Source of the DNA: a virus
Lineage: Duplodnaviria > Caudoviricetes
Reading direction: 5' to 3' (one strand)
IMG/VR virus record: IMGVR_UViG_3300042554_000410
Coordinates: 1 to 64,000 of that record
DNA length: 64,000 bases
Both the position numbers and the translations under genes were made by a program. How positions within the stretch are numbered: the stretch's first letter is position 1; each line of letters starts with the position of its first letter. The notes under the pieces are model-generated. The model had not been told where the DNA came from and made no database searches. It was given only the letters and a program-made list of their open reading frames with translations. Below are positions 29,552-42,211 of the stretch, in pieces.

Positions 29552-29625
29552 TGGTGCCCCCACAGGGAATCGAACCCCAAACCGCGGATTACAAAGCCGC
29601 TGTTATACCATTTAACTATAAGGGC
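29552..29625 (-). tRNA. tRNA-Thr(TGT)
   Basis: Cloverleaf, loop TT-TGT-AA, TTCGATT, CCA. Confidence 0.92.
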
Positions 29626-29664
29626 TAATATCATATATATAGTCGTGTGTGAAAAGGATTTAAA

Positions 29665-30228
29665 ATGCCCACATTAGAACAATTTGAAACAAATTGCGTG
29701 TCAATAGAAAAATTACAAAAGATTTACTCCTTTACAGTTATGGTTGAAACAGGATGCTACATTGGAGAATCTTTAGAACATGCTTCATCTTATGATTTTA
29801 TACTGGAAATATATTCTTGTGATATAAATGAAGATTTCGTTGATGCGTGTAAGAAAAAATTTCAAAGCAAATCACATATAAAAATATTCAACGAAGATTC
29901 ACATTCTTTTCTTCATAGACTATTGCCTTCACTAGATCATCATGATAGCATTTTTTTCTGGCTAGACGCACACTATTGGAAATCTTATATTCCTGAGTAT
30001 AATAATATAGACTATCCTCTTGTGAAAGAACTAAACATCATTGATCAGTATAGAAAAGATAAAAATGATGTTATTGTCATTGACGATGTTTATACTTATA
30101 TTAAAAAATCAGAAAATTTTAAACATACACACAATATTCCAAAAACAGGCACTGAGTTTTTAAAGAAGTTTAACTATAGCATTACAAACTTTGATTCTGA
30201 TTCTGGCTATCTTTTACTTACAAGATAA
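29665..30228 (+). CDS. SAM-methyltransferase-like protein (AT-rich, opposite strand)
   Basis: VETG, FWLDAH, VIVIDD. Confidence 0.75.
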   Translation: MPTLEQFETNCVSIEKLQKIYSFTVMVETGCYIGESLEHASSYDFILEIYSCDINEDFVDACKKKFQSKSHIKIFNEDSHSFLHRLLPSLDHHDSIFFWLDAHYWKSYIPEYNNIDYPLVKELNIIDQYRKDKNDVIVIDDVYTYIKKSENFKHTHNIPKTGTEFLKKFNYSITNFDSDSGYLLLTR

Positions 30229-30235
30229 TTTATAT

Positions 30236-30817
30236 CTAAACTTTTTTAGACCTCTTTACATTATAAAGCTTTTCGTGTATCGATGAATAATCTCTCGGCA
30301 TATATAAAACATTCAACAAGCATCTTGTTGTTCCTATCGAACTACCCACAACGTGCCAGTGATTTGGTTTATTAGCAAATAGAAAAGCTGTATTTTTCTT
30401 CCACTCAACTTTTTTGACAAAATTTTTATTATCGTCGTATAATTCAGTGCCTGATCCTGTGTCAGATATAGGAATTAAACATGATAGTTGTTTATCGAAA
30501 CTATCAGTGTGTAAGTACATGCCATGTTTCTCGTAGTCGGTGCAATTGTTATAAGAGACATATTGTAATACGACACGACTTTCAATCATAGTTAGTTTTG
30601 GAATTTCTAGTTTATCACAAAATATAGAGTACAGATCAAAAAGATAACTATGAAAGTTTTTGTTGTTGCCTTCATAATTAATCAGCGATCTATGATTTTG
30701 TGTTTTTAAGTCTAGAATTTTATTTGCGGTATCTTCCGCTTCTTTAAACATATCATCGGGCAAAAAATTAGGAATACTATAATGTAACCAGGGATCAGTA
30801 TATCTTTGAAATTCCAT
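30236..30817 (-). CDS. 2OG-Fe(II) oxygenase
   Basis: HTD...HWH...R facial triad; start MEFQRY just after tRNA-Leu. Confidence 0.75.
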   Translation of the reverse strand: MEFQRYTDPWLHYSIPNFLPDDMFKEAEDTANKILDLKTQNHRSLINYEGNNKNFHSYLFDLYSIFCDKLEIPKLTMIESRVVLQYVSYNNCTDYEKHGMYLHTDSFDKQLSCLIPISDTGSGTELYDDNKNFVKKVEWKKNTAFLFANKPNHWHVVGSSIGTTRCLLNVLYMPRDYSSIHEKLYNVKRSKKV

Positions 30818-30834
30818 TATACTACCTATAAAAT

Positions 30835-30916
30835 TGGTGCGGATAGAGGGACTTGAACCCCCACGCCGAAGCACTAGTTCCTAAGACTAGCGTGTCTGCC
30901 ATTTCACCATATCCGC
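30835..30916 (-). tRNA. tRNA-Leu(TAG)
   Basis: CTAGT-CT-TAG-GA-ACTAG, variable arm, CCA. Confidence 0.95.
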
Positions 30917-30917
30917 G

Positions 30918-30989
30918 TAGCCGATGAGAGGGTCGAACTCCCGACATTCTGCGTGTAAAGCAGCTACTCTACCACTGAGTTAATCGGCT
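30918..30989 (-). tRNA. tRNA-Val(TAC), CCA not encoded
   Basis: CTGC-TT-TAC-AC-GCAG; abuts tRNA-Leu. Confidence 0.9.
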
Positions 30990-31036
30990 ATGAAGACTAG
31001 CCCGTACACCTTAGTGCAGAGGAGCTAGCCATATTT

Positions 31037-31210
31037 TTACATTCCTGATGTAAGAGCAGTAATGGAGTCGTGAACCCACAACCACCAAGCTGCTGCGGCT
31101 GCAACGATAGCAGCAGCACCCTTCTTTACATCCCAGCCGTTCTGCCATAGATTCCAAAGAACCCAAAGAACTGCCGCAACTAAAACTAAAACTACGATTG
31201 TGTTTAGCAT
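31037..31210 (-). CDS. small two-helix membrane protein (57 aa)
   Basis: MLNTIVVLVLVAAVLWVLW...AAAIVAAAAAWWLWV; GAGG SD; CTAAATA late-promoter-like site upstream. Confidence 0.65.
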   Translation of the reverse strand: MLNTIVVLVLVAAVLWVLWNLWQNGWDVKKGAAAIVAAAAAWWLWVHDSITALTSGM

Positions 31211-31256
31211 GTTATTACCTCATTAGGCCGTGATTGGCCTATCATTATTTAGAAAA

Positions 31257-31331
31257 TGGAGCGGGCAATGGGGATCGAACCCATGACCTTCTGCTTGGCA
31301 AGCAGACGCACTACCCCTGTGCTATACCCGC
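31257..31331 (-). tRNA. tRNA-Gly(GCC)
   Basis: TCTGC-TT-GCC-AA-GCAGA, U73, CCA. Confidence 0.95.
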
Positions 31332-31334
31332 GAT

Positions 31335-31410
31335 TGGTGCGTCTTCCAAGTTTCGAACTGGGTTGTTCGGCTTATGAGACCGATGAGATTGCCAACACCT
31401 CCCAAGACGC
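31335..31410 (-). tRNA. tRNA-Met(CAT), atypical D arm
   Basis: TCGGT-CT-CAT-AA-GCCGA, CCA. Confidence 0.85.
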
Positions 31411-31541
31411 TTATAATGATTTACTGAGCAACCTAATCTCATCAATAGCCTTAGACTTCTCTTCTTTGTCTCTAGAGCCTACAAGAAGATATAGTATGAG
31501 ACATGCTATGTGTTTTTCGGTTGTCATTATCACTCTCTAAA

Positions 31542-31617
31542 TGGTGCTGCCTCTCTGAATCGAACAGAGTCCCCACGCTCTTCAGGCGTATGTACGCACC
31601 AGCTATACCAAGGCAGC
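31542..31617 (-). tRNA. tRNA-Phe(GAA)
   Basis: TACGC-CT-GAA-GA-GCGTG, CCA. Confidence 0.93.
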
Positions 31618-32292
31618 CAGAATTTTTCTTGTTTCTTCCCAATTTTTTACATTATACACTACATCGGCCACTTTTGCAAGAGGATAATCGTTTCCACCTT
31701 TCTCGCACTTGTCGCCAAAGAATACCAGTTTATTCTCTATCCAATCTTTAACTTGCGACTTATCTTTTCCTTTTGGATAGATATCAAGTCCAGTCTCGCC
31801 AGCAATAGTGCAATCCAGTTCAGGAAATAGTTTTCTGATACGTTCTGCAATTTGCACTCGTTCATTTGTTGCATTGTCCCATTCGACATACAATGCTCTT
31901 TGTGCTTTGTCTGCATTACGACCAACGACTGAGAAATTGACCATTCCTGTTCTCATCTCAGAATGTTTGCCAGTACGAATGTTAAAGCCACTCTTGCGCT
32001 TTTCATATTCCAAAGTCATGAACAAGATACCGCCCGCTTTCCAAGTGGACTGATATCTAACTTTGTCTTTTGAACGAACTTCGTTGCCACAGCAATTGAA
32101 TATAAACGAACACGAATCAATAACTTCTTGACCTACTTGTTCTAATGTTTTTGGATAATCTGAGCCTGTAACAAGACACACATCATGCTTGTTCGCAAAC
32201 TCAACAAACTCTTTGCGAAATTGTTCTTCCATTACTGAACGACTAGGAGTCAGTGTACCATCAACATCAAAACAGTAAGTAGTCTTTTCCAT
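31603..32292 (-). CDS. HAD-IIB (eukaryote-type) phosphomannomutase
   Basis: FDVDGTLT, VTGSD, RTGMVNFS..GR, FFGD....GGNDY. Confidence 0.88.
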   Translation of the reverse strand: MEKTTYCFDVDGTLTPSRSVMEEQFRKEFVEFANKHDVCLVTGSDYPKTLEQVGQEVIDSCSFIFNCCGNEVRSKDKVRYQSTWKAGGILFMTLEYEKRKSGFNIRTGKHSEMRTGMVNFSVVGRNADKAQRALYVEWDNATNERVQIAERIRKLFPELDCTIAGETGLDIYPKGKDKSQVKDWIENKLVFFGDKCEKGGNDYPLAKVADVVYNVKNWEETRKILAALV

Positions 32293-32293
32293 T

Positions 32294-32440
32294 TCAACCT
32301 TTCAACAATTGAGGCGCCGATTCGTTCAATTGCTTATTTTCGTATTCTTTCTTCTTAGCATCATATTGTTCATTTGTCAAGTTATGCCAACCGCAACACT
32401 TGCCATCTGGACTACGTCCACAACCACAGTCTTTACTCAT
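32294..32440 (-). CDS. small CDGSH-like Cys/His protein (48 aa)
   Basis: MSKDCGCGRSPDGKCCGWH...; GGAG SD. Confidence 0.6.
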   Translation of the reverse strand: MSKDCGCGRSPDGKCCGWHNLTNEQYDAKKKEYENKQLNESAPQLLKG

Positions 32441-32455
32441 TTGTTTCTCCTATAT

Positions 32456-32546
32456 TGGCGGACAGAGTGGGATTTGAACCCACGATACCTTATTAGGGTA
32501 TGCCTCGTTAGCAGTGAGGTGCCTTCGACCGCTCGGCCATCTGTCC
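32456..32546 (-). tRNA. tRNA-Ser(GCT)
   Basis: Loop CT-GCT-AA, long variable arm, G73, CCA. Confidence 0.95.
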
Positions 32547-32962
32547 TAATTCTGTATAATAATCGTCGTGTTTTCCTTACCGTACTCGCTGACAATTCTA
32601 TATAGCCACTTTGCATTCTGCGGGTGCAGACGGATGCAGCCGTGAGATGCTGGTCTACCAAGACGCTTTAAATCTTCCGTCGCATGTATTGCATATCCGT
32701 CAAGAAAGAAGATAGAATTTGGCATCGGCGCATTATCATACTTACGAGAATAGTGCATCTTGACCATATGATACGGCTGAAACACACCGCGAGGAGTATT
32801 GTATCCCTTTCGCCCAGTAGAAACATTCCACTCATAATAGTCCGTTGGTGTTTCTACTAACATGATTTGATCCGAGACATCAACCGTGATGATTACATCT
32901 TCGGCCTTAGCAACTCCAGTCATTGCAACCAGAGCCGCCATCATAACGAAAAACTTCTTCAT
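32546..32962 (-). CDS. L,D-transpeptidase (YkuD family)
   Basis: Signal peptide; VSTG...TP.G, AIH...ASHGCIRL. Confidence 0.92.
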   Translation of the reverse strand: MKKFFVMMAALVAMTGVAKAEDVIITVDVSDQIMLVETPTDYYEWNVSTGRKGYNTPRGVFQPYHMVKMHYSRKYDNAPMPNSIFFLDGYAIHATEDLKRLGRPASHGCIRLHPQNAKWLYRIVSEYGKENTTIIIQN

Positions 32963-33459
32963 GCTACCTTATCTTCCTTAGGCAAATGTTGAATTGCGTC
33001 CTTGTAACGGTCAGCGCAGTAAGATGCTGCCCATGCGTTTGGCTTTACAAGCGGAATCACATTACACATTCCACGAATATAACCTACAGCTTCATTTATA
33101 ACACAAGATGAGCCGTGTTTCAAGTCAGGATTTATGTCTAAGTGAATTTCAACTCCACGTTCACCAATTGCTTCCTCTAAGTCAAGATACAACTGTGCCG
33201 TCTTCATTACCTCATTCATGAGACGCATACGTGGCTTGTCCTTCTGCTGGTCATAGTCACGTTCACGAACAACAGAACCAAATACGCGACAACCATTCTT
33301 TCCATTCTTATGCACAACTACCACGTTGATGTAGTCGGCATACCAAATTCCATCTATCTGGAAACGTTCTGAGTCGCCACCAAGATATATCTTTGTTTCT
33401 GGAGTTTGTGCTTGAATGAATGCGCGGACTTCTTCCATGTTCATGTTTTTGCGTATCAT
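32959..33459 (-). CDS. RNase H-like YkuK-family protein
   Basis: IYLGGDS, RLMNEV, EIHLDIN, KP.AWAASYCAD. Confidence 0.85.
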   Translation of the reverse strand: MIRKNMNMEEVRAFIQAQTPETKIYLGGDSERFQIDGIWYADYINVVVVHKNGKNGCRVFGSVVRERDYDQQKDKPRMRLMNEVMKTAQLYLDLEEAIGERGVEIHLDINPDLKHGSSCVINEAVGYIRGMCNVIPLVKPNAWAASYCADRYKDAIQHLPKEDKVA

Positions 33460-34349
33460 TTTTGTTTTCCTAATTCTACCAAATCTTCTAGTACATTATA
33501 GAATGATTTGAGATGTTTTACAAGTTCTATTTTTTCTAGACTATCTGCATATATGGAATGCAAATTATCTTCATGCCACCACATTTCAAATTTTTCTATC
33601 GCAAAAAAATCTAGATTTTTTTGCCAAATTATATGATATATGCATTCCTCATCATGAACTTCTTTTAACAGTTCAATGACAACTTTTGCGATATTGTCAA
33701 ATATAAAATGAAATTTTTGAACTGTAGTTTTCTTTCCACCTAATATTCCAGCAATTGCGTGATAATTAATGGTATCAAGTCTTTGATCTATAATATTTCT
33801 TCTGTAAAACACAGGATAAGTATTATTAATAGCAAACATTAAAAATCTGTCTTCCGTTTTCTTTTTCATACCTTCAATTAGTTCATTACAGAATAAATCT
33901 GAATTATAATATTCAGATGTGCTATTGTCTGCAAATATCAGATGTTTATCTGGTATCAGTCCTGAGTATGAAATTCCAACATCAATCCAAAATACGTAAT
34001 TGTAGTCTACAATTTCATTCATCCAGTAAGATTTTAGATATTGTATTTCTTGACATCTATCAGATGTTAACGCTTCCTCAAAGTTTTTATATTCATCAAA
34101 CAAGTCTTTCATGTAGAAATTTTCTAAGTTGTAAGGAACAATAATAACTTTTGTTTTTGCTATAGGTTCAATAAATTCTCTTACATCAGATTCTTGTAAA
34201 GGATCACAGTAGATGTAGAAATCTGCATTTGTAATTTTAAGAAGTGACGCAAGAGAGTGTAAATATTGATGATATCTGTGTTGTCTTCCGCCATAATTTG
34301 TGCCGTGAAGATTAGTATAGAAACATGTCACAATAGCTGTATCGTTCAT
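33456..34349 (-). CDS. HtrL/WlaTC-like glycosyltransferase
   Basis: T.IVT, FWIDVG, AGILGG; start MNDTA downstream of tRNA-Ser. Confidence 0.65.
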   Translation of the reverse strand: MNDTAIVTCFYTNLHGTNYGGRQHRYHQYLHSLASLLKITNADFYIYCDPLQESDVREFIEPIAKTKVIIVPYNLENFYMKDLFDEYKNFEEALTSDRCQEIQYLKSYWMNEIVDYNYVFWIDVGISYSGLIPDKHLIFADNSTSEYYNSDLFCNELIEGMKKKTEDRFLMFAINNTYPVFYRRNIIDQRLDTINYHAIAGILGGKKTTVQKFHFIFDNIAKVVIELLKEVHDEECIYHIIWQKNLDFFAIEKFEMWWHEDNLHSIYADSLEKIELVKHLKSFYNVLEDLVELGKQK

Positions 34350-34363
34350 TATTACTCTCAATA

Positions 34364-34451
34364 TGGCGGATAGAGTAGGATTCGAACCCACGAAACATTG
34401 CTGTTCTCCAGTTTTCAAGACTGGCGCCTTCAACCACTCGGCCATCTATCC
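34364..34451 (-). tRNA. tRNA-Ser(TGA)
   Basis: CCAGT-CT-TGA-AA-ACTGG, long variable arm, CCA. Confidence 0.95.
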
Positions 34452-34505
34452 AAAATTCGATGCGATTTCTTATAGTGGTTACGCCCTCCACTTTTAGTAT
34501 ATAGT

Positions 34506-34582
34506 TGGCGCACTCGGATGGACTCAAACCACCAACCTCCGGTTTCGTAGACCGGCATTCTATTCAGTTGAACTACGAGTGC
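34506..34582 (-). tRNA. tRNA-Arg(ACG)
   Basis: CCGGT-CT-ACG-AA-ACCGG, CCA. Confidence 0.93.
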
Positions 34583-35095
34583 TTATCTGAGCCAATTAAT
34601 TATTTTGAAATGGAATGCAATGGTCACTCTTAACTTAAAGCATTCTCTTGAAGGAGCTTTTCCATAATGTAGCACGTTTGAAGGGAAAAAAATACCTTTA
34701 TTGTGTTTTGGAATTATAGTTATAATTTTTTTGTTTATATTAAATAGAGTTTCTCCGCCCCAATCAGATTTCCAATCTTCATTAACATAATATACAAAAG
34801 TATATTGATCCGAATCGAGACTGTCAGTGTGCCAACATCCATCTAAACCATATGTTTGTCCGTTAGCAAAAACTCTTCTAAGATCACACTGCACTCCTAT
34901 TTTAAATTGAATTTTTTCAAACAGATTCGTTGTGAAAAAAGAATCGTCTCTAAGTTGAATAAACCAAAATCTACTTTTACTTTCTGGAGTAGCCGAATGT
35001 CCAAATTTCCACGAAGATTTGTCTATTTTCTTGACAATTTTTAATCTGTCATCATCATCAAACACATTATCAAATTCTTCGACTGTGTTTCTCAT
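34583..35095 (-). CDS. 2OG-Fe(II) oxygenase (prolyl-hydroxylase-like)
   Basis: HTD, YYVN..W...WGGET, H, R.T.AF. Confidence 0.85.
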   Translation of the reverse strand: MRNTVEEFDNVFDDDDRLKIVKKIDKSSWKFGHSATPESKSRFWFIQLRDDSFFTTNLFEKIQFKIGVQCDLRRVFANGQTYGLDGCWHTDSLDSDQYTFVYYVNEDWKSDWGGETLFNINKKIITIIPKHNKGIFFPSNVLHYGKAPSRECFKLRVTIAFHFKIINWLR

Positions 35096-35110
35096 CTTAC
35101 GCCTTTTGTT

Positions 35111-35186
35111 TGGAGGAGACGGCCAGATTCGAACTGGCACCTCAAGGATTTGCAGTCCCGTACATTAACCGTTTTGCTACGTCTCC
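35111..35186 (-). tRNA. tRNA-Cys(GCA)
   Basis: Loop CT-GCA-AA, U73, CCA. Confidence 0.92.
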
Positions 35187-35605
35187 GGATTTATTTTAAA
35201 ATGTTCAACAGCAATTCTTCTTCTTAACTCTGATGAACTGAAACTGTGTTCGCGCTTATTAAAATGATATTTCATCTTTGATATTTTATAACCTGTGAAT
35301 GCTTTACCTCTATACTCTTCACCAAGTATACGTATATTTATAGGAAGCATGTTTAGGATATCAAGCAATTCTGCTTCTGTAGAATACACAATAATCTCAT
35401 CAACAAACTTGCAGGCTCTTACTTGTAATTGCCTTTCAATCAAACTTTGAACTGGTTTGTTTTTCTCTGGTCTATCAATTGTAGGATCCACTTGTAGTCC
35501 AACAATTAACCAATCACATTGCTGCTTTGCTTCTTCTAACATTGCAACATGACCAGCATGAAACAAATCAAACGTAGAACATGTAAATCCAATAATCTTG
35601 TTCAT
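35177..35605 (-). CDS. glycerol-3-phosphate cytidylyltransferase-like
   Basis: STFDLFHAGH, KNKP, R.HSFSSS. Confidence 0.88.
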   Translation of the reverse strand: MNKIIGFTCSTFDLFHAGHVAMLEEAKQQCDWLIVGLQVDPTIDRPEKNKPVQSLIERQLQVRACKFVDEIIVYSTEAELLDILNMLPINIRILGEEYRGKAFTGYKISKMKYHFNKREHSFSSSELRRRIAVEHFKINPET

Positions 35606-35621
35606 AATGTTTTCTCCTAAT

Positions 35622-35695
35622 TGGCTGCCCTTCGTGGATTCGAACCACAATTGCTGGAGTCAGAGGCCAGAGTCCTGCCGTTAGACGAAAGGGCA
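35622..35695 (-). tRNA. tRNA-Gln(CTG)
   Basis: Loop CT-CTG-AC, U1-A72, CCA. Confidence 0.93.
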
Positions 35696-35696
35696 A

Positions 35697-35770
35697 TGGT
35701 ACTGCATAGTGGAATCGAACCACTGTAATCGGCTCCACAAACCGATGTTCTACCATTGAACTAATGCAGC
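35697..35770 (-). tRNA. tRNA-His(GTG), alphaproteobacterial type
   Basis: Loop TT-GTG-GA; G1:U72, A73, no G-1. Confidence 0.92.
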
Positions 35771-35779
35771 ACTTGTAAT

Positions 35780-36526
35780 CTACATATGACAGAAAAATAA
35801 TTTTTCATCTTCTGTGAGTAAAGACCAAAATATATTGTTTAAGTGTTTACGAAAAAACATTATGTTTTGGTATAGGTCTTCCGAAAAATGAAAGTCTGCG
35901 TATCTTGCTGCTATACCTATTTCTAGACCTTCGGCGATTTGTGGAACTTTATTGTTTTGTAGTTTCCAATAAAGTTCTTCCCATTTATCAATGAAATATT
36001 TAAGTTTAAATGTATTGCGAAATACTATAAAACCTTCTTGAAATGTAAATATGGAATCGTTCTTATCAAATTCCAACACATCATATTTCTCATCGTAAGC
36101 TTCTCTGTGTCCAGAAGAAAATAGCGGCGTTACTATATCAAATCTTTCTCTTTTACACTCTTCTAAGAAATTCTGAATTTTCAGTTCTTCATATGAATCA
36201 TTAAATACGAAGTCACTATCAATGTATATTATGTATTCCGATGTAGATTTTTGAAACGCATTTTTTAGTGCTAAAAATTTTAGATTATAGTTGAAGTGAG
36301 AAGTCGATTGAATTTCTTCATTCTCGTAAAATATAGGATATTTTTCAGGTATCTTATATGTGTATAAATTTTTTATGTTTGGCACAATATCATTTGTTGT
36401 TAAATAAACTTTTGCGTTGTTGTGTTTATTTTTATCTTCAACAAAACTTGCCGCTAACTCGGAATAAGGAGATTTAAATCGCCAATTGTATCCAGCAGAT
36501 AGCATTGTATAATCATATGTAATCAT
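35780..36526 (-). CDS. glycosyltransferase-like protein (AT-rich)
   Basis: FNYNLK...IYIDSD (DxD). Confidence 0.6.
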   Translation of the reverse strand: MITYDYTMLSAGYNWRFKSPYSELAASFVEDKNKHNNAKVYLTTNDIVPNIKNLYTYKIPEKYPIFYENEEIQSTSHFNYNLKFLALKNAFQKSTSEYIIYIDSDFVFNDSYEELKIQNFLEECKRERFDIVTPLFSSGHREAYDEKYDVLEFDKNDSIFTFQEGFIVFRNTFKLKYFIDKWEELYWKLQNNKVPQIAEGLEIGIAARYADFHFSEDLYQNIMFFRKHLNNIFWSLLTEDEKLFFCHM

Positions 36527-36548
36527 AATATGTCCTATACTTTAGAAA

Positions 36549-36625
36549 TGGTTGCGGGAGTGGGATTCGAACCGCACGATCTTCGACTTATGAGGCCGAT
36601 GAGATGACCGCTTCTCTATCCCGCA
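36549..36625 (-). tRNA. tRNA-Met(CAT), initiator-like
   Basis: TGCGGGA acceptor, A11-U24-type D stem, CT-CAT-AA, ACCA. Confidence 0.88.
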
Positions 36626-36628
36626 ATG

Positions 36629-37147
36629 TCAATGTTGTATTGTTTTAAAATTAACGGCGATAACCGTTTTTCTACCTTTCGATTTGTTGAAACTTGATCT
36701 ATGTTCTAGTAGAGATGGAAATAAAATGAAATCGCCTTCTTTTACGTTTGCTGTGTAAGTTTCTTCACTATTAAGAGGATTTCTAAATTCAGTAGCCGGA
36801 GAATCCTCTGGCAATTCAAGATAATACACTAAATTCCAATCTGATCCTGAATGTCTATGCCATTCATGATGATCATTGGTTTCATATTGTTGAAACCAAT
36901 AACGACCCATTTCAAATCGATCATAATGCATATTTTTAAAATATCTTTTCAAGATTGGATTGAAATACATCATTAGCGTTTCGATGTATTCGCTATTATG
37001 ATTAGGATATTGCCAATCGCTCTTTGTAACTTTTTCACCATCAAGTAGAGTGTTACATCCAACAGACTCTTCTATCATCTGTAGAAAATCTTTTTTAAGA
37101 TGATTGTGTTTATGAAACGACTCAATTATTAATGGTATTTGGAACAC
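36629..37147 (-). CDS. putative 2OG-Fe(II) oxygenase
   Basis: WFQQY...H.WH.H, VYYL, EGD.ILFPS.L.H, R; GTG start after GGAG. Confidence 0.8.
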   Translation of the reverse strand: MFQIPLIIESFHKHNHLKKDFLQMIEESVGCNTLLDGEKVTKSDWQYPNHNSEYIETLMMYFNPILKRYFKNMHYDRFEMGRYWFQQYETNDHHEWHRHSGSDWNLVYYLELPEDSPATEFRNPLNSEETYTANVKEGDFILFPSLLEHRSSFNKSKGRKTVIAVNFKTIQH

Positions 37148-37190
37148 TATAAACTCTCCGCTGTCGATTGTAAGTATATATGTCGCAAAT

Positions 37191-37265
37191 TGGTAGAGCA
37201 TACGGGAGTCGAACCCGTCTCTCATCCTTGAAAGGGATGTGACCTAACCGATAGTCGAATGCTCC
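37191..37265 (-). tRNA. tRNA-Glu(TTC)
   Basis: CATCC-CT-TTC-AA-GGATG, CCA. Confidence 0.93.
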
Positions 37266-37276
37266 ATTAATAGTTT

Positions 37277-37352
37277 GTCAATCGTATAGGATTTGCACCT
37301 ATGTTTCATCCGACTCCGCAGATGTTTCCTAACTTCTAGAAGAACGATTAAC
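37277..37352 (-). ncRNA. tRNA-like RNA, copy 1
   Basis: Four-arm fold without canonical anticodon loop or CCA; near-identical copy at 38607-38680. Confidence 0.7.
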
Positions 37353-37356
37353 AATA

Positions 37357-37431
37357 TGGAGAACCCTCTGGGATTCGAACCCAGGACAGACGGATTAAAA
37401 GCCCGCTACTCTACCACTGAGTTAAGGGTTC
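37357..37431 (-). tRNA. tRNA-Lys(TTT)
   Basis: GCGGG-CT-TTT-AA-TCCGT, CCA. Confidence 0.95.
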
Positions 37432-37434
37432 AAT

Positions 37435-37508
37435 TGGCTGGGAGACTAGGATTCGAACCTAGATAGTTGGAATCAAAATCCAACGTCCTGCCGTTAGACG
37501 ATCTCCCA
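37435..37508 (-). tRNA. tRNA-Gln(TTG)
   Basis: TTGGA-TT-TTG-AT-TCCAA, CCA. Confidence 0.95.
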
Positions 37509-37542
37509 ATAATTGGTGCCTAGTCCGGAACTAGGACTTAAA

Positions 37543-37616
37543 TGGTTGGCCAGTAGAGAATCGAACTCTCATCGGACGCCTATCAAGCGCCTGCTTTACC
37601 ATTAAGCTACAAGCCA
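37543..37616 (-). tRNA. tRNA-Ile(GAT)
   Basis: GGCGC-TT-GAT-AG-GCGTC, CCA. Confidence 0.9.
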
Positions 37617-37622
37617 TTGAAT

Positions 37623-37783
37623 TGCACCGCATCATGATATCCTCATGTCTCCTGGTCAAGCGGGTGACCTCCCCTCAGACTTGCGACTAACACCGCTCAA
37701 AGTGTTAGTTAGAGGGCGTGGTGGAAAACAAAAACTCCATGTTGAGTACATTTCAGCGTTTTTGTTAACGGTACCACGGCGCA
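37623..37783 (-). ncRNA. candidate structured ncRNA (~160 nt)
   Basis: Closed by TGCGCCGT/GCGGTGCA; five or more internal helices. Confidence 0.55.
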
Positions 37784-37786
37784 CTT

Positions 37787-37872
37787 TGGTGGGTGAGGTA
37801 GGATTCGAACCTACTAAGTACTAGACAGGGGATTTACAGTCCGCCGCAACTCGCCATCGTTGCCGCTCACCC
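37787..37872 (-). tRNA. tRNA-Tyr(GTA)
   Basis: Loop CT-GTA-AA, long variable arm, CCA. Confidence 0.92.
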
Positions 37873-37992
37873 GAAACTTGTTGAGCCTCACGCTGCTTGG
37901 CTCAACTCATCTGTAACTTCTCGACTCATTCGCAGTAGCGTAGCTCCGCACTCAAACGTACGGCACCCTGCGCGATGGTGACAGATTGAATA

Positions 37993-38067
37993 TGGTGGAC
38001 CCTAAGAGAATCGAACTCTTACCCTCGCCGTGCAAAGGCGATGTGCTCCCATTATCACTAAGGGCCC
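37993..38067 (-). tRNA. tRNA-Ala(TGC)
   Basis: TCGCC-TT-TGC-AC-GGCGA; G3:U70; CCA. Confidence 0.95.
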
Positions 38068-38203
38068 TATTAATAGCTCCTGTCACTATCGCAGTCAGGC
38101 AAACGGTTACTTATTTAACGGTCTCTCTTTAATCGGCCGAAGAGAGAAAATCATTCAGTAACACCCTAGTTTATTTCAACCGTAAAGGGCATGTTTCTTG
38201 AAT

Positions 38204-38277
38204 TGGCACCAGTGCAAGGATTCGAACCCTGACAAACGGTTTTGGAGACCGCTGTGCTACCGTTACACCACACTGAT
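38204..38277 (-). tRNA. tRNA-Trp(CCA)
   Basis: GCGGT-CT-CCA-AA-ACCGT, CCA. Confidence 0.93.
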
Positions 38278-38511
38278 ATTGGCGACCCATTCCCCGACTT
38301 TTCGTATGCTGGACTTTCACTCTATTACTTGCCATAGAGATTAACCAGTTCTGTGCCACATTTCATTGGCTGCTACTACTAGCGGATCAAGACAGGTCAT
38401 AATTACGAATGAGGAAAGAAGCAGCATCAAAACTACGCCTACTGTTTCTTTTACACCAAATACTGGGCACTTTTGGGTGTGCTACATCGCAGTATTCGAT
38501 AACCTCAATAT

Positions 38512-38588
38512 TGGTCGGAGTACTAGGATTCGAACCCAGGACCCTCTGCTCCCAAAGCAGATGCGCTACCAGACTGCGCTACACTCCG
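38512..38588 (-). tRNA. tRNA-Pro(TGG)
   Basis: TCTGC-TT-TGG-GA-GCAGA, CCA. Confidence 0.96.
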
Positions 38589-38606
38589 TTATAATTTATA
38601 TAGTAT

Positions 38607-38680
38607 GTTATCGTATAGGATTTGCACCTATGTTTCATCCGACTCCGCAGATGTTTCCTAACTTCTAGAAGAACGATAAC
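38607..38680 (-). ncRNA. tRNA-like RNA, copy 2
   Basis: Core identical to 37277-37352 with compensated closing stem. Confidence 0.7.
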
Positions 38681-38685
38681 AATCT

Positions 38686-38759
38686 TGGCGACCTATGCGA
38701 GACTCAAACTCGCTACACCTCTTAGACAGAGAGGTATGATATCCATTCACTAATAGGCC
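38686..38759 (-). tRNA. tRNA-Asp(GTC)
   Basis: CCTCT-CT-GTC-TA-AGAGG, G73, CCA. Confidence 0.9.
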
Positions 38760-38849
38760 ATGTTAGGATAGTGAGTGCTAACGGCGTATCTAAATCACAC
38801 ATGACGCATCAACGCCGTATTGCCTGTATGATTGAAGTCACTCACTAAT

Positions 38850-38924
38850 TGGTGTGCCAGGTGAGAATTGAACTCACGACATTCGGTTTAAGAGACCGCT
38901 ACTCTACCACTGAGTTACTGGCGC
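38850..38924 (-). tRNA. tRNA-Lys(CTT)
   Basis: Loop CT-CTT-AA, CCA. Confidence 0.92.
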
Positions 38925-39133
38925 AAATTTGGAGTGGGCTAACGACAACATTCTGGATGTTCCCGCTTGTCTTATCGGCGTATCCCCACTCAATACGCTG
39001 GAGTCAGTCTTTACTAACACGTAGCTACACGACTGACAGCGTTCTACGAATAGGCTTCACGGCGAAGATCGGTCACAGTATGCATCCTGCCGACTCGTTA
39101 CTTTAATCGCGCAAACTCTAACGAACCGTGAAT

Positions 39134-39209
39134 TGGCTGGATAGCTTGGATTCGAACCAAGGACATCCTCGTTAACAGCGAGGCGCTCTACCGCTGGAGC
39201 TACTATCCA
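39134..39209 (-). tRNA. tRNA-Asn(GTT)
   Basis: CCTCG-CT-GTT-AA-CGAGG, CCA. Confidence 0.95.
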
Positions 39210-39212
39210 ATA

Positions 39213-39340: not shown

Positions 39341-39341
39341 C

Positions 39342-39501: not shown

Positions 39502-39658
39502 ATTATGTGAGGCTACGCCGAATCGTAGTAATCTCACCGGTGTTTCGTCATTCGGTACGCTCAGTTTTAAAAAACTAAGAAAAAGGAACTTAACAATGTA
39601 AATCAGCGGTGCTGCTTATCCTGCAGCTAGGAAACTCTTTCAATCAACTTACAAACAC

Positions 39659-39727
39659 AATATAGCAGTTCAGAACCAGGAAGTCAACTTTTATTTTTGC
39701 ATAACTGCTATGTTCTGGACGCATAAC
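39659..39727 (-). promoter_or_regulatory. sigma70 promoter of tRNA operon with upstream ATGC-N7-GCAT-like box
   Basis: TTGACT-17-TATATT (39687-39659); box at 39699-39727. Confidence 0.7.
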
Positions 39728-39729
39728 TC

Positions 39730-39767
39730 AAAAAGAAGAACCCCGAAACTTTTGGCTTCGGGGTTCT
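39730..39767 (-). terminator. intrinsic terminator (putative attenuator)
   Basis: AGAACCCCGAAGC-CAAAA-GTTTCGGGGTTCT followed by TCTTTTT. Confidence 0.85.
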
Positions 39768-39792
39768 AAGAAACTAAGTCTATCCGTAAGAC

Positions 39793-39876
39793 TTAAAGCA
39801 TAGAACCCCTCGCGTCTGCCCATGCTGGGCGACCTTCAAATTGATTATTCGTAATTGGGCAATAATGCGATTTCAT
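39793..39876 (-). CDS. putative attenuator leader peptide MKSHYCPITNNQFEGRPAWADARGSML
   Basis: Lies between promoter and terminator; contains 19 different amino acids; 3' end carries the antiterminator strand. Confidence 0.7.
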   Translation of the reverse strand: MKSHYCPITNNQFEGRPAWADARGSML

Positions 39877-39901
39877 TTCCGTTCTTTCTAACTTTGTATT
39901 C

Positions 39902-39932
39902 TATTTATATCACAAGGAAGTCAATTTGTCAA
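39902..39932 (-). promoter_or_regulatory. overlapping sigma70 and T4-late promoter
   Basis: TTGACA-17-TATAAA, with the -10 extended to TATAAATA. Confidence 0.75.
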
Positions 39933-39933
39933 G

Positions 39934-40560
39934 TTATTCTCTAACTTTTCTAATTCTTTTTTCGTCGCCTAGATTTGCTCTTCCATCGTATGCCAAATCT
40001 GCGTTTGGACCATTTGCATCAACGTAGTGCAAAAATACTTGTGCTTGCCATCTGCCTGTATATTTTTCTCTCCAGTGCCAGAGATCCATTCCTCTGTAAA
40101 GAACAGCACCGCCCACTTCGATTATCTGTCTATGAACATCTGTGTGTTTATCAGTTTTAGAAAAAAAGAAAGGCCAGATAGATGACTTTTTATCGTGACC
40201 TAAAGTTATTGTGGCTGATATTTCGCAACTAGGGCGATCTTTGTGTATATTTAAAACTTCATTTTTATTGTAGAGTCTGGCATACGTATACGTTGGAAGT
40301 AGCGATATATTGATAAGAGATGATATCTTTGATCGATTTAGATCAAGAAACTTATCTAAAAGGGATTCTCCATATATACTACCTGAAAGAGTACACTGTT
40401 TATCTGGTTTTAATCTTCCTTCATTTTTCAAGGAAAGAAGATGATTCGTGAGCATTTCACACTCATACTTGTCCACAAGATTAGGAACATATGCCCAGCC
40501 ATGTTTTGCAAAATGCTGCTCTACATTTAGACAGGATTCTCTTTTATCTAAATTTTCCAT
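39934..40560 (-). CDS. 2OG-Fe(II) oxygenase-like protein
   Basis: PTYTYARLY, HKDRPSCEIS.T, HWRE, QVFLHYV. Confidence 0.82.
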   Translation of the reverse strand: MENLDKRESCLNVEQHFAKHGWAYVPNLVDKYECEMLTNHLLSLKNEGRLKPDKQCTLSGSIYGESLLDKFLDLNRSKISSLINISLLPTYTYARLYNKNEVLNIHKDRPSCEISATITLGHDKKSSIWPFFFSKTDKHTDVHRQIIEVGGAVLYRGMDLWHWREKYTGRWQAQVFLHYVDANGPNADLAYDGRANLGDEKRIRKVRE

Positions 40561-41290: not shown

Positions 41291-41372
41291 TGGTGCGAGT
41301 GGAGGGACTTGAACCCCCATGCTTTCGCGGTTGATTTTGAGTCAACTGTGTCTACCGTTTCACCACACTCGC
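41291..41372 (-). tRNA. tRNA-Leu(CAA)
   Basis: GTTGA-CT-CAA-AA-TCAAC, variable arm, CCA. Confidence 0.95.
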
Positions 41373-41464
41373 TGGTCGGCGTGCTTGGATTCGAACCAAG
41401 TCAAGAACACTCATCTAGTGCTAAAGGGATTATAAGGCCCTCCCGTGTACCAACACCCACGCCG
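41373..41464 (-). tRNA. tRNA with TAT anticodon (Ile-type) and long variable arm
   Basis: CGGCGTG/CACGCCG, loop CT-TAT-AA, V-arm AGCACT-AGATG-AGTGTT, CCA. Confidence 0.85.
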
Positions 41465-41665
41465 TTAAATCTTCTTGATACCGTTTACATAATTCTCTGC
41501 GGCATCTTCATGATACAGAAGATTATGTTCTTCATACGATTCAGTAGCAACGATTAAACCATTTTTACCAAACTCAACTTCAAACTTATCTTGAGACGCA
41601 TTATAATATACAATGGCCTTCAAGTCAAAGTCTTCTGAATGAAATACTGATACTTGGCTTCTCAT
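41465..41665 (-). CDS. hypothetical protein
   Basis: Y.EDAAENYV.G motif; GAGG SD. Confidence 0.65.
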   Translation of the reverse strand: MRSQVSVFHSEDFDLKAIVYYNASQDKFEVEFGKNGLIVATESYEEHNLLYHEDAAENYVNGIKKI

Positions 41666-41681
41666 GCTATCCTCTTTGTTT

Positions 41682-41757
41682 TGGTGCGCCCGCTCAGATT
41701 CGAACTGAGGATCGGACGGTTATGAGCCGTCAGCATTAACCGCTATGCTACAGGCGC
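41682..41757 (-). tRNA. tRNA-CAT (Ile2 or elongator Met)
   Basis: GACGG-CT-CAT-AA-CCGTC, CCA. Confidence 0.92.
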
Positions 41758-41761
41758 GAGT

Positions 41762-41837
41762 TGGTGCCCCTTGTCAGATTCGAACTGACCCTTGAAGGAT
41801 TTTAAGTCCTCTGCCTCTACCGCTGGGCTAAAGGGGC
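41762..41837 (-). tRNA. tRNA-Leu(TAA), short variable loop
   Basis: GAGGA-CT-TAA-AA-TCCTT, 5-nt variable region, CCA. Confidence 0.9.
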
Positions 41838-41843
41838 TTTATC

Positions 41844-42110
41844 TTAGTCCTTGCTTGACCCGTGAATGAAACCCTTGCGAGGATCACCCCAATATGTATC
41901 TGCGCGGACACGAACGAACCGTGCGCGAGTATCGGCCGTGTTCTCATTTGGAACAGACAACCAAGGATTCTTGCCAGCCAACCACGCCTTCTGCTTCATT
42001 GTCCACTTTACAATAGCAGACCGATCACGCTTGATGGCCTTAGAAATCTGTCGATTTGCTTCACGCTCACCCTTTGAGGTGTAAGTAGATTTAGTCTTTG
42101 GTGCGGACAT
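41844..42110 (-). CDS. basic hypothetical protein of T4-like phages
   Basis: YTSKGER...AW..GKNP.L..PN..T...F. Confidence 0.7.
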   Translation of the reverse strand: MSAPKTKSTYTSKGEREANRQISKAIKRDRSAIVKWTMKQKAWLAGKNPWLSVPNENTADTRARFVRVRADTYWGDPRKGFIHGSSKD

Positions 42111-42134
42111 TCACTTTCTCCATTATACTTTAAT

Positions 42135-42211
42135 TGGCGACTCCGGAGGGACTTGAACCCCCAGCATTCAGATTAGAAGTCTGACACTCTATCCAGTTGA
42201 GTTACGGAGCC
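42135..42211 (-). tRNA. tRNA-Arg(TCT)
   Basis: TCAGA-CT-TCT-AA-TCTGA, CCA. Confidence 0.95.

What the first reader, a model, noticed from the sequence alone, without database searches (positions are those of the whole stretch)
39730..39932. Putative all-amino-acid attenuator controlling the phage tRNA operon
Seen in sequence (minus strand): a TTGACA-17-TATAAA(TA) promoter, a 27-codon ORF MKSHYCPITNNQFEGRPAWADARGSML, then a 13-bp terminator with a U tract. The peptide uses 19 of 20 amino acids (no Val), 18 of them in the first 21 codons, including the rare H, Y, C and W. Its last codons contain GGGGTTCTA (39801-39809), a perfect complement of the terminator 5' arm TAGAACCCC (39760-39768). A small hairpin over the stop codon sits between these two strands, and a GC hairpin lies at 39814-39833. 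Downstream are 24 tRNA genes covering all 20 amino acids. Established: trp/his-type attenuators use runs of one amino acid. Inference: a ribosome reaching the stop masks the antiterminator and transcription ends, while a stall on almost any codon (starvation or host anticodon nuclease) allows readthrough into replacement tRNAs. This would be a general tRNA-depletion sensor. Caveat: a second promoter (39659-39687) lies after the terminator, so the attenuator may only boost expression.
Basis: partly seen in the sequence, partly recalled or inferred. Interest (0 to 1): 0.93.

Follow-up and report, generated by a model that had tools for sequence, protein, structure and literature searches.

The report
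All-amino-acid leader gating phage tRNAs
A short upstream reading frame that spells out nearly every amino acid sits in front of a transcription stop signal inside a lake phage's tRNA gene cluster; relatives keep the same design, so it looks like a switch that lets the phage make more tRNAs whenever translation stalls.

Summary
Homologous leaders occur in 20 distinct sequences from uncultured T4-like aquatic phages (down to ~71% nt identity). All 20 keep a 25-29 codon frame that ends 8-12 nt after a GGGG element. This element pairs with the 5' arm of the only strong intrinsic terminator in the tRNA array. Antiterminator, stop-codon hairpin and terminator all covary (93.8% of cells paired, 9/17 pairs with double changes, 0/500 shuffles). 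In 18/18 nascent-RNA folds the antiterminator forms before the terminator's 3' arm exists. Peptide constraint is weak (pN/pS 0.73), but the frame is always kept, which is the signature of a leader. Residue diversity is high: mean 17.3 distinct residues against 14.2 expected. A second, wider family was found with a terminator-only pattern and lies directly upstream of phage tRNA arrays. There, 11 of 22 distinct leader peptides contain all 20 amino acids and 6 contain 19. The closest known system is the mycobacterial whiB7 uORF attenuator. Function is inferred, not shown. No prior description was found in seven literature searches. Verdict: a real, ribosome-mediated attenuator and a new variant of a known kind, of high interest.

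The parts
39904..39932 (-). Promoter P1: -35 TTGACA (39932-39927), 17-nt spacer, extended -10 TG-n-TATAAA (39912-39904). The predicted start of transcription is about 39897.
   Evidence: Read. The block of homology with relatives begins exactly at the -35, while the upstream genes differ. The -10 and the TG are conserved in distant relatives.
39793..39876 (-). Leader ORF (uORF): 27 codons plus a TAA stop, with 19 of the 20 amino acids.
   Evidence: An ORF of 25-29 codons is kept at this place in 20 of 20 unique homologous leaders. pN/pS is 0.73.
39814..39833 (-). ORF-internal hairpin H1 around the Pro-x-Trp codons. It is a candidate RNA polymerase pause hairpin (inferred).
   Evidence: It forms in the MFE fold. 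RNAalifold finds it, with CG to UA covariation in 5 sequences. The Pro codon here is always CCA, which pairs with the Trp UGG, whereas the Pro codon near position 7 uses all four codons.
39801..39809 (-). Region 2: the antiterminator 5' strand (GGGG plus 5 nt), inside the last five codons of the uORF.
   Evidence: The GGGG:CCCC core is invariant. Four of the next five pairs show changes on both sides. The element lies in another reading frame in L011 and L119.
39774..39796 (-). Stop-codon hairpin (8 bp, 7-nt loop) enclosed by the antiterminator. The TAA stop lies in its 5' arm.
   Evidence: Five of its eight pairs show changes on both sides. L011/L134 and L119 have entirely different stems.
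39760..39768 (-). Region 3: shared by the antiterminator (with region 2) and the terminator (5' arm).
39730..39767 (-). Intrinsic terminator: a 13-bp stem-loop at 39767-39737 and a T tract at 39740-39730.
   Evidence: The hairpin is -21 kcal/mol. 89.2% of cells are paired across 17 distinct sequences, and 4 of 13 pairs show double changes.
39693..39728 (-). Conserved spacer element with two copies of a 7-nt word, between the terminator and P2. Function unknown.
   Evidence: It is conserved in the window, L016, L023, L072, L121, L118, L011 and L134 types.
39659..39687 (-). Promoter P2 (TTGACT, 17-nt spacer, TATATT, with TG before the -10), downstream of the terminator.
   Evidence: It is conserved in L011. 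Other relatives carry a different promoter-like site at this place.
29552..39209 (-). Downstream part of the tRNA array: 24 tRNA genes for all 20 amino acids, interspersed with ORFs.
41291..42211 (-). Upstream part of the tRNA array: Arg(tct), Leu(taa), Met, Ile(tat) and Leu(caa).
   Evidence: The same five genes precede the leader in relatives.

Best explanation
This is a ribosome-mediated transcription attenuator built into a phage tRNA gene array.

Proposed mechanism:
1. Host RNA polymerase starts at P1 and transcribes a 25-29 codon leader ORF.
2. The last codons of the ORF are the 5' strand of an antiterminator (region 2). Region 2 pairs with the 5' arm of an intrinsic terminator (region 3) around a small hairpin that holds the stop codon.
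3. On naked or poorly translated RNA the antiterminator forms first, and polymerase reads on towards the tRNA genes.
4. A ribosome that translates the whole leader and reaches the stop codon covers or unwinds region 2. The terminator then forms and transcription ends.
5. The leader encodes nearly every amino acid once. A shortage of almost any charged tRNA (starvation, tRNA cleavage or host shut-off) should therefore delay the ribosome upstream of region 2 and raise readthrough. This would give the phage feedback control of its tRNA supply.

Shown: the anatomy, its conservation and covariation, the preserved open frame, the high residue diversity and the fixed position in tRNA arrays.

Inferred: that the ORF is translated, that stalls at single codons are long enough, that hairpin H1 pauses the polymerase, and the direction and size of the effect.
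For: (1) Conservation of the ORF. All 20 unique leaders (18 distinct peptides) keep a start, an open frame of 25-29 codons and a stop 8-12 nt after the last G of region 2. This holds although pN/pS is 0.73 and the entropy by codon position is 0.76/0.72/0.88. In L011 and L119 the frame over region 2 is shifted.

(2) Alternative structures.
- On the model-fitted alignment of 18 sequences (17 distinct rows), the antiterminator plus stop hairpin has 93.8% of cells paired, against 86.0% in shuffles (0/500). Nine of 17 pairs show double changes, against 3.7 in shuffles (0/500). Slid controls give 29-57%.
- The terminator has 89.2% of cells paired.
- An alignment-free pair table shows compensatory changes at four antiterminator positions.
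- Cognate region 2/3 duplexes beat non-cognate ones (permutation p = 0.0034, 11 representatives).

(3) Folding. In 18/18 sequences the RNA truncated before the terminator's 3' arm forms the GGGG:CCCC core in its MFE. The antiterminator domain is -14 to -26 kcal/mol and the terminator -17 to -24 kcal/mol.

(4) Context.
- The nearest upstream tRNA is Leu(caa) in 18 of 20 loci, counting the window.
- The first downstream tRNA is Asn(gtt) in 16 of 20.
- The genes just upstream of P1 and just downstream of the terminator vary.

(5) Residue diversity.
- The window has 19 of 27 distinct residues (P = 1.1e-3).
- The family mean is 17.3, against 14.2-14.4 expected.
- Divergent lineages keep 18-19. Under a drift model, P is 0.0007 for L119, 0.02 for L125, and 0.03-0.04 for L011 and L134.

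(6) Independent family.
- Covariance model R1 found unrelated leader peptides in more distant phages (L219, 39 aa; L220, 33 aa). Both have all 20 residues and lie directly before tRNA arrays.
- A terminator-only pattern scan gave 117 sites, 51 of them with a same-strand tRNA within 900 nt.
- Among the 22 distinct uORF peptides with a tRNA within 200 nt and a region 2:3 duplex of -12 kcal/mol or better, 11 have 20 distinct residues, 6 have 19, 1 has 18, 2 have 17, and one each has 13 and 11. They fall into 13 clusters at 60% identity.
- The 11 control peptides at pattern sites without a tRNA have mean z of -0.25.
- P(all 20 in 31 residues) is 4.6e-4 with phage composition and 2.2e-3 even with uniform composition.

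(7) Generic screen of held loci. Units of terminator plus uORF plus duplex that have a tRNA downstream: 17 peptides, mean z +2.06. The same without a tRNA: 60 peptides, mean z -1.03.

(8) Precedent. In whiB7, efficient uORF translation gives termination and stalling gives antitermination. A single Trp codon suffices to sense Trp starvation, and the M. smegmatis uORF has every residue but Cys (passages read).

(9) Weak hints.
- RNA-library contigs from two studies cover the leader and bridge the terminator (X18: 39541-39879; X19: 39701-39852). Neither covers the upstream gene, apart from one 36-nt piece of X19 (40022-40057) that has loose ends on both sides.
- uORF codons are readable by the phage tRNAs held in the same locus more often than codons of long ORFs: 72% against 63% in family 1, and 73% against 64% in family 2. 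Only 17 of 38 leaders could be used, and the sequences are not independent.
Against: - There is no functional data of any kind.
- The window's Shine-Dalgarno-like GGA lies only 2 nt before the ATG. The L016 group has none. Some family-2 leaders would have to be leaderless, because their -10 ends 6-9 nt before the ATG.
- Diversity is not universal. In the window's family 4 of 18 peptides have 14-15 distinct residues, which is the chance level. In the stall-competent part (codons 2 to about 18) only 7 of 18 peptides reach P < 0.05. In family 2, two of the 22 peptides have 11 and 13.
- Homologs are related, so shuffle and permutation statistics are lenient.
- In the full-length RNA the terminator state is 0-9.5 kcal/mol more stable than the antiterminator state in 16 of 18 sequences. 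Persistence of the antiterminator therefore rests on kinetics that were not modelled.
- L026 has a mismatch in the antiterminator and only -10.5 kcal/mol.
- In the window a promoter (P2) follows the terminator, and ORFs interrupt the array. The attenuator can therefore govern only part of tRNA transcription there.
- The conserved N-terminal half of the window-family peptide could reflect a peptide function.
- Contigs cannot measure termination or strand.
Confidence: 0.66

Rival explanations
1. It is a translation-coupled attenuator, but it reports overall ribosome availability or transcription-translation coupling (for example host shut-off, or the early versus late phase of infection). It does not report each amino acid or tRNA. 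On this reading the residue diversity is a by-product or serves another end.
For: The architecture, covariation and default antiterminator folding fit this reading equally well. Four of the 18 window-family peptides have only chance-level diversity. Enrichment within the stall-competent codons is modest.
Against: Eleven of 22 family-2 leaders contain all 20 residues and 6 contain 19, across 13 clusters. This is hard to explain without selection on composition. Lineages with almost no peptide identity to the window keep 18-19 distinct residues. In whiB7 the uORF composition decides which starvations are sensed.
Confidence: 0.15
2. It is a self-contained gene for a 25-29 residue micro-protein with its own promoter and terminator. 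The pairing between the ORF's end and the terminator only shapes mRNA stability or translation.
For: The unit has its own promoter and terminator, and another promoter follows. The ORF is kept in all homologs. The N-terminal half is well conserved, with synonymous variation at one Pro codon.
Against: - pN/pS is 0.73, with almost no excess of third-position change.
- The C-terminal frame shifts in L011 and L119 while the nucleotide element stays.
- Family-2 leaders at the same kind of site have unrelated peptides that share only their composition and RNA design.
- The two mutually exclusive helices both covary.
- No similar peptide was found in GenBank phages by tblastn at E up to 10.
Confidence: 0.1
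3. It is a small non-coding RNA of about 165 nt. The open frame is incidental, or the terminator merely insulates the upstream transcription unit from P2.
For: It is a short promoter-to-terminator unit with a strongly structured RNA (z = -3.7). It matches no known RNA family.
Against: An incidental frame would not stay open, with a start and a stop at fixed places, in 20 of 20 diverged sequences that carry indels. Nor would it recur with all 20 residues in a second family.
Confidence: 0.04

Closest known systems
whiB7 uORF transcription attenuator of mycobacteria (general translation-stress sensor)
   Same: A uORF is followed by an antiterminator/terminator switch. Efficient uORF translation gives termination, and stalled or absent translation gives readthrough. 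The uORF is compositionally diverse (every residue but Cys in M. smegmatis), and a single codon suffices to sense one amino acid (passages of bioRxiv 10.1101/2023.06.02.543512 read). The design found here has the same logic: default antiterminator folding, with the stop codon just after the antiterminator strand.
   Different: The whiB7 uORF is longer and Ala-rich (25-40% Ala per the same passages), sits in a bacterial chromosome and controls a transcription factor. The element here is phage-borne and 23-42 codons long, with near-maximal diversity and no enrichment of one residue. It controls tRNA genes, which supply the very molecules it would sense. No sequence relation was tested or is expected.
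Classical amino-acid operon attenuators (trp, his, leu, thr, pheA, ilv leaders of enterobacteria; recalled knowledge)
   Same: Both have a promoter, a short leader ORF, alternative 2:3 and 3:4 helices with an intrinsic terminator, a ribosome at the stop codon that masks region 2, and an ORF-internal hairpin that could pause the polymerase.
   Different: Those leaders carry runs of one or a few regulatory codons and control biosynthesis of that amino acid. Their untranslated RNA forms 1:2 and terminates. Here there are no runs, nearly all residues occur once, the default fold is the antiterminator, and the target is a tRNA array.
Antibiotic-sensing leader-peptide attenuators (for example the vmlR leader; search listing and abstract of PMC9226507 seen; erm/cat-type leaders recalled)
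   Same: Ribosome stalling in a short uORF switches an RNA structure and turns on downstream genes. They act as general sensors of impaired translation.
   Different: Those respond to drug-bound ribosomes at specific peptide motifs and control resistance genes. Nothing here suggests a drug-dependent arrest motif.
T-box riboswitches (recalled knowledge)
   Same: They also couple tRNA charging status to an antiterminator/terminator decision.
   Different: T-boxes bind one uncharged tRNA directly, without a ribosome or an ORF, and precede aminoacyl-tRNA synthetase or amino-acid genes. No T-box or any other Rfam family matches here.

Membership tests
Classical ribosome-mediated amino-acid operon attenuators (trp/his type) | A short leader ORF between the promoter and an intrinsic terminator | tested here: met
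   An ORF of 25-29 codons is kept in 20 of 20 unique homologs. The promoter and terminator are confirmed. Translation itself was not testable.
Classical ribosome-mediated amino-acid operon attenuators (trp/his type) | Runs or strong enrichment of codons for the regulating amino acid | tested here: not met
   No residue occurs more than three times in the window's 27 codons, which hold 19 distinct residues. The family mean is 17.3 distinct.
Classical ribosome-mediated amino-acid operon attenuators (trp/his type) | Mutually exclusive antiterminator (2:3) and terminator (3:4) helices | tested here: met
   Both helices covary.
Classical ribosome-mediated amino-acid operon attenuators (trp/his type) | A 1:2 helix that sequesters region 2 when the leader is not translated | tested here: not met
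   The conserved hairpin H1 does not include region 2. Nascent RNA forms 2:3 in 18 of 18 MFE folds.
Classical ribosome-mediated amino-acid operon attenuators (trp/his type) | Controls an amino-acid biosynthetic operon | tested here: not met
   tRNA genes lie downstream.
General translation-stress uORF attenuators (whiB7 type) | A ribosome that completes the uORF disrupts the antiterminator; stalled or absent translation leaves it in place | tested here: met
   Architecture only. The stop codon lies 8-12 nt after region 2 in all 20 leaders, and the default fold is the antiterminator. The response to stalling is not testable with these tools.
General translation-stress uORF attenuators (whiB7 type) | A diverse uORF composition that sets which amino-acid shortages are sensed | tested here: met
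   For composition only. The sensing itself is not testable here.
General translation-stress uORF attenuators (whiB7 type) | Readthrough induced by amino-acid starvation, tRNA loss or ribosome inhibitors | not testable with these tools
   This needs reporter or in vitro assays.
Any described RNA family (Rfam 15, including T-box, leaders and riboswitches) | A match at or above the family's gathering score | tested here: not met
   Only tRNAs passed across the whole window. In 38900-40100 the best non-tRNA E-values were 0.2-0.7, far below the gathering scores.
Stand-alone micro-protein gene | Purifying selection on the amino-acid sequence | tested here: inconclusive
   pN/pS is 0.73 over 152 pairs. 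The N-terminal half is conserved, the C-terminal frame is not. RNA-structure constraints confound the measure.

The most novel reading that the evidence does not exclude
Aquatic T4-like phages carry a dedicated 'pan-aminoacyl-tRNA sensor'. This is a leader peptide selected to contain each of the 20 amino acids about once, coupled to an antiterminator/terminator switch at the head of, or inside, their tRNA arrays. A shortage of any single charged tRNA would raise transcription of the whole phage tRNA set. Such a shortage could come from starvation, from codon-usage mismatch, or from host anticodon nucleases and other tRNA-targeting defences. This would be the first attenuation control of tRNA genes, a closed feedback loop between tRNA supply and tRNA synthesis, and possibly a counter-defence device.
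Probability: 0.55. Interest if true: 0.93.

Novelty: new variant of a known kind. Interest (0 to 1): 0.88.

Why it matters
It is an open question how phages control their often large tRNA sets. It is also unclear why they carry tRNAs for all amino acids. Current ideas are codon-usage matching, compensation for host tRNA decay, and escape from anticodon nucleases.

A leader that samples every amino acid and gates tRNA transcription would show that the phage measures translational capacity and responds with tRNA supply. It would make these hypotheses directly testable with a roughly 170-nt element driven by a sigma-70 promoter.

It would also extend ribosome-mediated attenuation in two ways. The controlled genes would be RNA genes. 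And the design principle would be maximal codon diversity instead of codon runs. Until now that principle has been seen only in part, in the whiB7 uORF.

The element also offers a compact, natural 'any-amino-acid starvation' reporter.

Tried and rejected
- DNA searches of GenBank phages with the leader found nothing. With a family-2 leader they hit only the adjacent tRNA.
- tblastn with two leader peptides at E up to 10 gave no credible hit. No cultured phage or host can therefore be named.
- One search used reverse-strand script coordinates by mistake. It hit a regA/DNA-polymerase region instead of the leader. It is used only as a hint that these contigs are T4-like.
- Rfam gave no family.
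- A trp-like 1:2 anti-antiterminator was looked for and not found.
- The idea that the peptide is a conserved micro-protein was weighed and ranked low.
- The small ORFs between the terminator and the first tRNA in relatives are variable and carry no Pfam family, except a GIY-YIG endonuclease in L134. They are not the conserved target.
- Sequencing runs. DNA holders are lake and freshwater metagenomes. The three RNA-labelled runs hold only small shares. The parts of the stretch that their contigs do not cover prove nothing.
- Seven literature searches found no description of a leader peptide or attenuator before phage tRNA genes. Subscription journals are not covered.
- The protein searches, structure prediction and complex prediction were not used. 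The peptide is below their length limits, and no binding claim is made.
Full report
**What is there.** On the minus strand the window holds the following features.
- A sigma-70 promoter: TTGACA at 39932-39927, a 17-nt spacer, and TATAAA at 39909-39904 preceded by TG-n.
- A 27-codon ORF at 39876-39793.
- A GC hairpin inside the ORF at 39833-39814.
- The 9-nt word at 39809-39801, which is the exact complement of 39768-39760.
- An 8-bp hairpin holding the stop codon at 39796-39774.
- A 13-bp terminator with a T tract at 39767-39730. It is the only strong terminator-like site on this strand in 29-43 kb.
- A second promoter at 39687-39659.
- Downstream, 24 tRNA genes for all 20 amino acids; upstream, five more.

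The peptide has 19 distinct residues. A random 27-mer of this phage's composition has 14.4 +/- 1.4, so P(>=19) = 1.1e-3. It is the only one of the 89 ORFs of 25-29 codons in the window with 19. No Rfam family other than tRNA matches.

**Origin.** The window is part of a 98.5-kb viral record estimated 59% complete. It encodes a family B DNA polymerase, a DnaB-like helicase and a class II ribonucleotide reductase. Its 2OG-oxygenase-like neighbour gene resembles genes of cyanophages and pelagiphages. Near-identical DNA occurs in lake and freshwater metagenomes. No GenBank phage matches the leader.

**Relatives.**
- Four viral contigs carry a near-identical leader. Homology starts exactly at the -35, while the upstream gene differs in three ways. 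The 203 nt from the -35 to the T tract have one variable column, against at least ten plus indels in the next 225 nt.
- Through relatives of the polymerase (594 of 599 candidate stretches confirmed, 80 loci kept) I searched 28 whole records with the leader DNA. Seven held it at 71-78% identity.
- Two pattern scans plus nhmmer raised the set to 20 unique leader sequences with 18 distinct peptides.

**The ORF is kept, the peptide is not.**
- All 20 unique leaders have a start codon at the aligned place (19 ATG, one GTG). All have an open frame of 25-29 codons and a stop (TAA, TAG or TGA) 8-12 nt after the last G of the GGGG element.
- Amino-acid constraint is weak. Aggregate pN/pS is 0.73 over 152 pairs, and column entropy by codon position is 0.76/0.72/0.88.
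- In L011 and L119 the frame over the GGGG element is shifted by one base, yet the frame stays open and stops at the equivalent place.
- The start of L119 is uncertain, because a shorter ATG frame also exists.
- The Pro codon next to the invariant Trp codon is always CCA, the complement of UGG. The Pro codon near position 7 uses all four codons. Some of the apparent peptide conservation is therefore RNA-level constraint.
- This pattern, translation selected but not the product, is what a regulatory leader predicts.

**Two exclusive helices, both conserved.**
- An anchor-based table made without alignment gaps shows an invariant GGGG:CCCC core followed by five pairs. Compensatory double changes occur at four of these positions: L125 at +1; L011 and L134 at +3; L134 at +4; L121, L119 and L134 at +5. 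Single mismatches occur in L026, L121, L118/L072 and the L016 group.
- On an alignment fitted to covariance model R1 (18 sequences, 17 distinct rows), the antiterminator plus stop hairpin has 93.8% of cells paired, against 86.0% in shuffles (0/500). Nine of 17 pairs have double changes, against 3.7 in shuffles (0/500). Slid controls give 29-57%. The fit to the model favours the structure, and the sequences are related.
- On the same alignment the terminator has 89.2% of cells paired (9/500 shuffles as high) and 4 of 13 pairs with double changes (60/500).
- Cognate region 2/3 duplexes (-10.5 to -24.4 kcal/mol) are stronger than non-cognate ones. The permutation p is 0.0034 with 11 representatives, driven mainly by L011/L134 and L125.
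- RNAalifold independently finds the ORF-internal hairpin, with CG to UA covariation in five sequences.

**Logic of the switch.**
- In 18/18 sequences the transcript truncated before the terminator's 3' arm forms the antiterminator core in its MFE.
- The antiterminator domain is worth -14 to -26 kcal/mol and the terminator hairpin -17 to -24 kcal/mol.
- In the full-length RNA the two states differ by +0.8 to -9.5 kcal/mol, mostly in favour of the terminator.
- Naked RNA should therefore read through. A ribosome reaching the stop covers region 2, so termination follows complete translation.
- With a footprint reaching about 13 nt past the A-site codon, stalls at codons 2 to about 18 leave region 2 free.
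- This is the logic described for the whiB7 uORF (passages read), not the trp 1:2 default.
- Hairpin H1, 10-12 nt before region 2, is well placed to pause the polymerase until a ribosome arrives. This is an inference.

**Place in the genome.** Counting the window, the nearest upstream tRNA is Leu(caa) in 18 of 20 loci. The exceptions are L164, where the locus ends, and L119. The first downstream tRNA is Asn(gtt) in 16 of 20. The exceptions are L011 (locus ends), L134 (Arg, then Asn), L125 (an Ile(tat) call, then Asn) and L119 (Pro). The genes between these landmarks vary. They include 2OG-oxygenase-like genes upstream in the window and L004, and small unknown ORFs or a GIY-YIG endonuclease downstream in others. 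The constant partner of the leader is the tRNA array.

**Residue diversity in the window's family.** The 18 distinct peptides have 14-20 distinct residues, mean 17.3. One 26-residue peptide (L121) has all 20 (P = 2.5e-5). Four peptides (L016, L124, L023, L203) have 14-15, which is the chance level. Under a drift model that keeps the observed identity to the window peptide, the divergent lineages are still too diverse: L119 P = 0.0007, L125 P = 0.02, L011 P = 0.03, L134 P = 0.04. L016 is not (P = 0.99). Within the stall-competent codons the enrichment is modest: 11-15 distinct of 15-19, with about 11 expected, and 7 of 18 at P < 0.05.

**A second family makes the case.**
- Model R1, run on 18 more distant polymerase relatives, hit two records. 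In both, a sigma-70 promoter, a uORF with an unrelated peptide (39 and 33 residues, each with all 20 amino acids), a region 2:3 pairing and a terminator lie directly before a tRNA array. A third was found in L063 (30 residues, 17 distinct).
It gave 117 sites, of which 51 have a same-strand tRNA within 900 nt.
- Among distinct uORF peptides with a tRNA within 200 nt and a duplex of -12 kcal/mol or better (n = 22, in 13 clusters at 60% identity), 11 have 20 distinct residues, 6 have 19, 1 has 18, 2 have 17, and one each has 13 and 11. Mean z is +2.35.
- The 15 other peptides near tRNAs have mean z of +0.41. The 11 at sites without a tRNA have mean z of -0.25.
- P(all 20 in 31 residues) is 4.6e-4 with phage composition and 2.2e-3 even with uniform composition.
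- Of the 20 diverse leaders, 15 have a sigma-70-type promoter within 90 nt. Fourteen have no tRNA in the 3 kb upstream, and where sequence was available 13-22 tRNAs lie downstream. In 12 the first tRNA begins within 50 nt of the T tract, which leaves no room for a second promoter.
- L283 is a clear example: a 31-codon uORF with all 20 residues, a terminator ending at 6376, tRNA-Pro at 6378, and 21 tRNAs in 3.5 kb.
- A generic screen of all held loci gave the same contrast. Terminator plus uORF plus duplex with a tRNA downstream: 17 peptides, mean z +2.06. Without a tRNA: 60 peptides, mean z -1.03. The only two high controls are read through antisense tRNA genes.

**Weak hints.**
- Contigs of two RNA libraries from two studies cover the leader and bridge the terminator (X18: 39541-39879, starting about 18 nt after the predicted start; X19: 39701-39852). 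Neither covers the upstream gene, apart from one 36-nt piece of X19 (40022-40057) with loose ends on both sides. A DNA run covers everything. Contigs show neither strand nor level.
- uORF codons are readable by the phage tRNAs held in the same locus somewhat more often than codons of long ORFs: 72% against 63%, and 73% against 64%. Only 17 of 38 leaders could be used, and the sequences are not independent.

**Comparison and novelty.** The mechanism class, ribosome-mediated attenuation, is textbook. The nearest relative in logic is the whiB7 uORF, which senses many amino acids through a diverse uORF.

New here are:
- the carrier (phages);
- the target (tRNA genes, which gives a closed loop between tRNA supply and tRNA synthesis);
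- the extreme, recurrent selection for a complete amino-acid set in 23-42 codons.

Seven full-text searches found no prior description. Subscription journals and supplements were not visible. I rate it a new variant of a known kind.

**Verdict.**
- Confidence is 0.66 in the full model. It is about 0.8 that this is a translation-coupled attenuator of some kind.
- Interest is 0.88.

Noticed in passing
window 39585-39607 (minus strand): A 23-nt word is 100% identical in relatives whose leader is only about 71% identical (16 viral contigs). A small hairpin that covaries between the window and L002 follows it. It always lies between the attenuator and the first downstream tRNA. It could be a processing site, a protein-binding site or a phage-specific promoter.
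   Followed up: partly
window 39210-39650 (minus strand): About 440 nt between P2 and tRNA-Asn carry no ORF above 27 codons on this strand. The stretch is conserved with indels and is covered by RNA-library contigs (X19: 39268-39509; X18: down to 39541). It may be a non-coding RNA or a long tRNA precursor leader. No Rfam match was found.
   Followed up: partly
window 39693-39728 (minus strand): Two copies of a 7-nt word lie 22 nt apart between the terminator and P2. They are conserved across distant relatives. This may be an operator or an UP-like element for P2.
   Followed up: no
window 39934-40560 and 40618-41265 (minus strand): Two paralogous-looking ORFs (208 and 215 aa) sit inside the tRNA array, just upstream of P1. 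They are present in the window and L004 and absent in L002-type relatives. The first resembles cyanophage and pelagiphage genes annotated as 2OG-Fe(II) oxygenase or 'ferrochelatase'. Neither has a Pfam hit.
   Followed up: partly
window 41373-41464 (minus strand) and relatives: A 92-nt tRNA-Ile(tat) with the anticodon at position 31 is unusually long and is conserved in many relatives. In L157 and L026, ARAGORN also calls a tRNA with a two-base anticodon.
   Followed up: no
window 16717-20196 (minus strand): A 1159-aa protein combines a cytidylyltransferase-like domain, a Zeta-toxin/AAA-type kinase domain and DUF6321.
   Followed up: no
L134:606-1232 and L002 around 10600-11100: Homing-endonuclease genes are inserted between tRNA genes of relatives: a GIY-YIG gene in L134 and an HNH-like Cys/His-rich ORF in L002. 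This shows that the arrays are hot spots for mobile genes, while the attenuator stays in place.
   Followed up: partly
L240, L258, L282, L289, L330 (family-2 leaders): The -10 hexamer ends only 6-9 nt before the uORF's ATG. These leaders would therefore be translated from leaderless or nearly leaderless mRNA, or else start at a later ATG.
   Followed up: no
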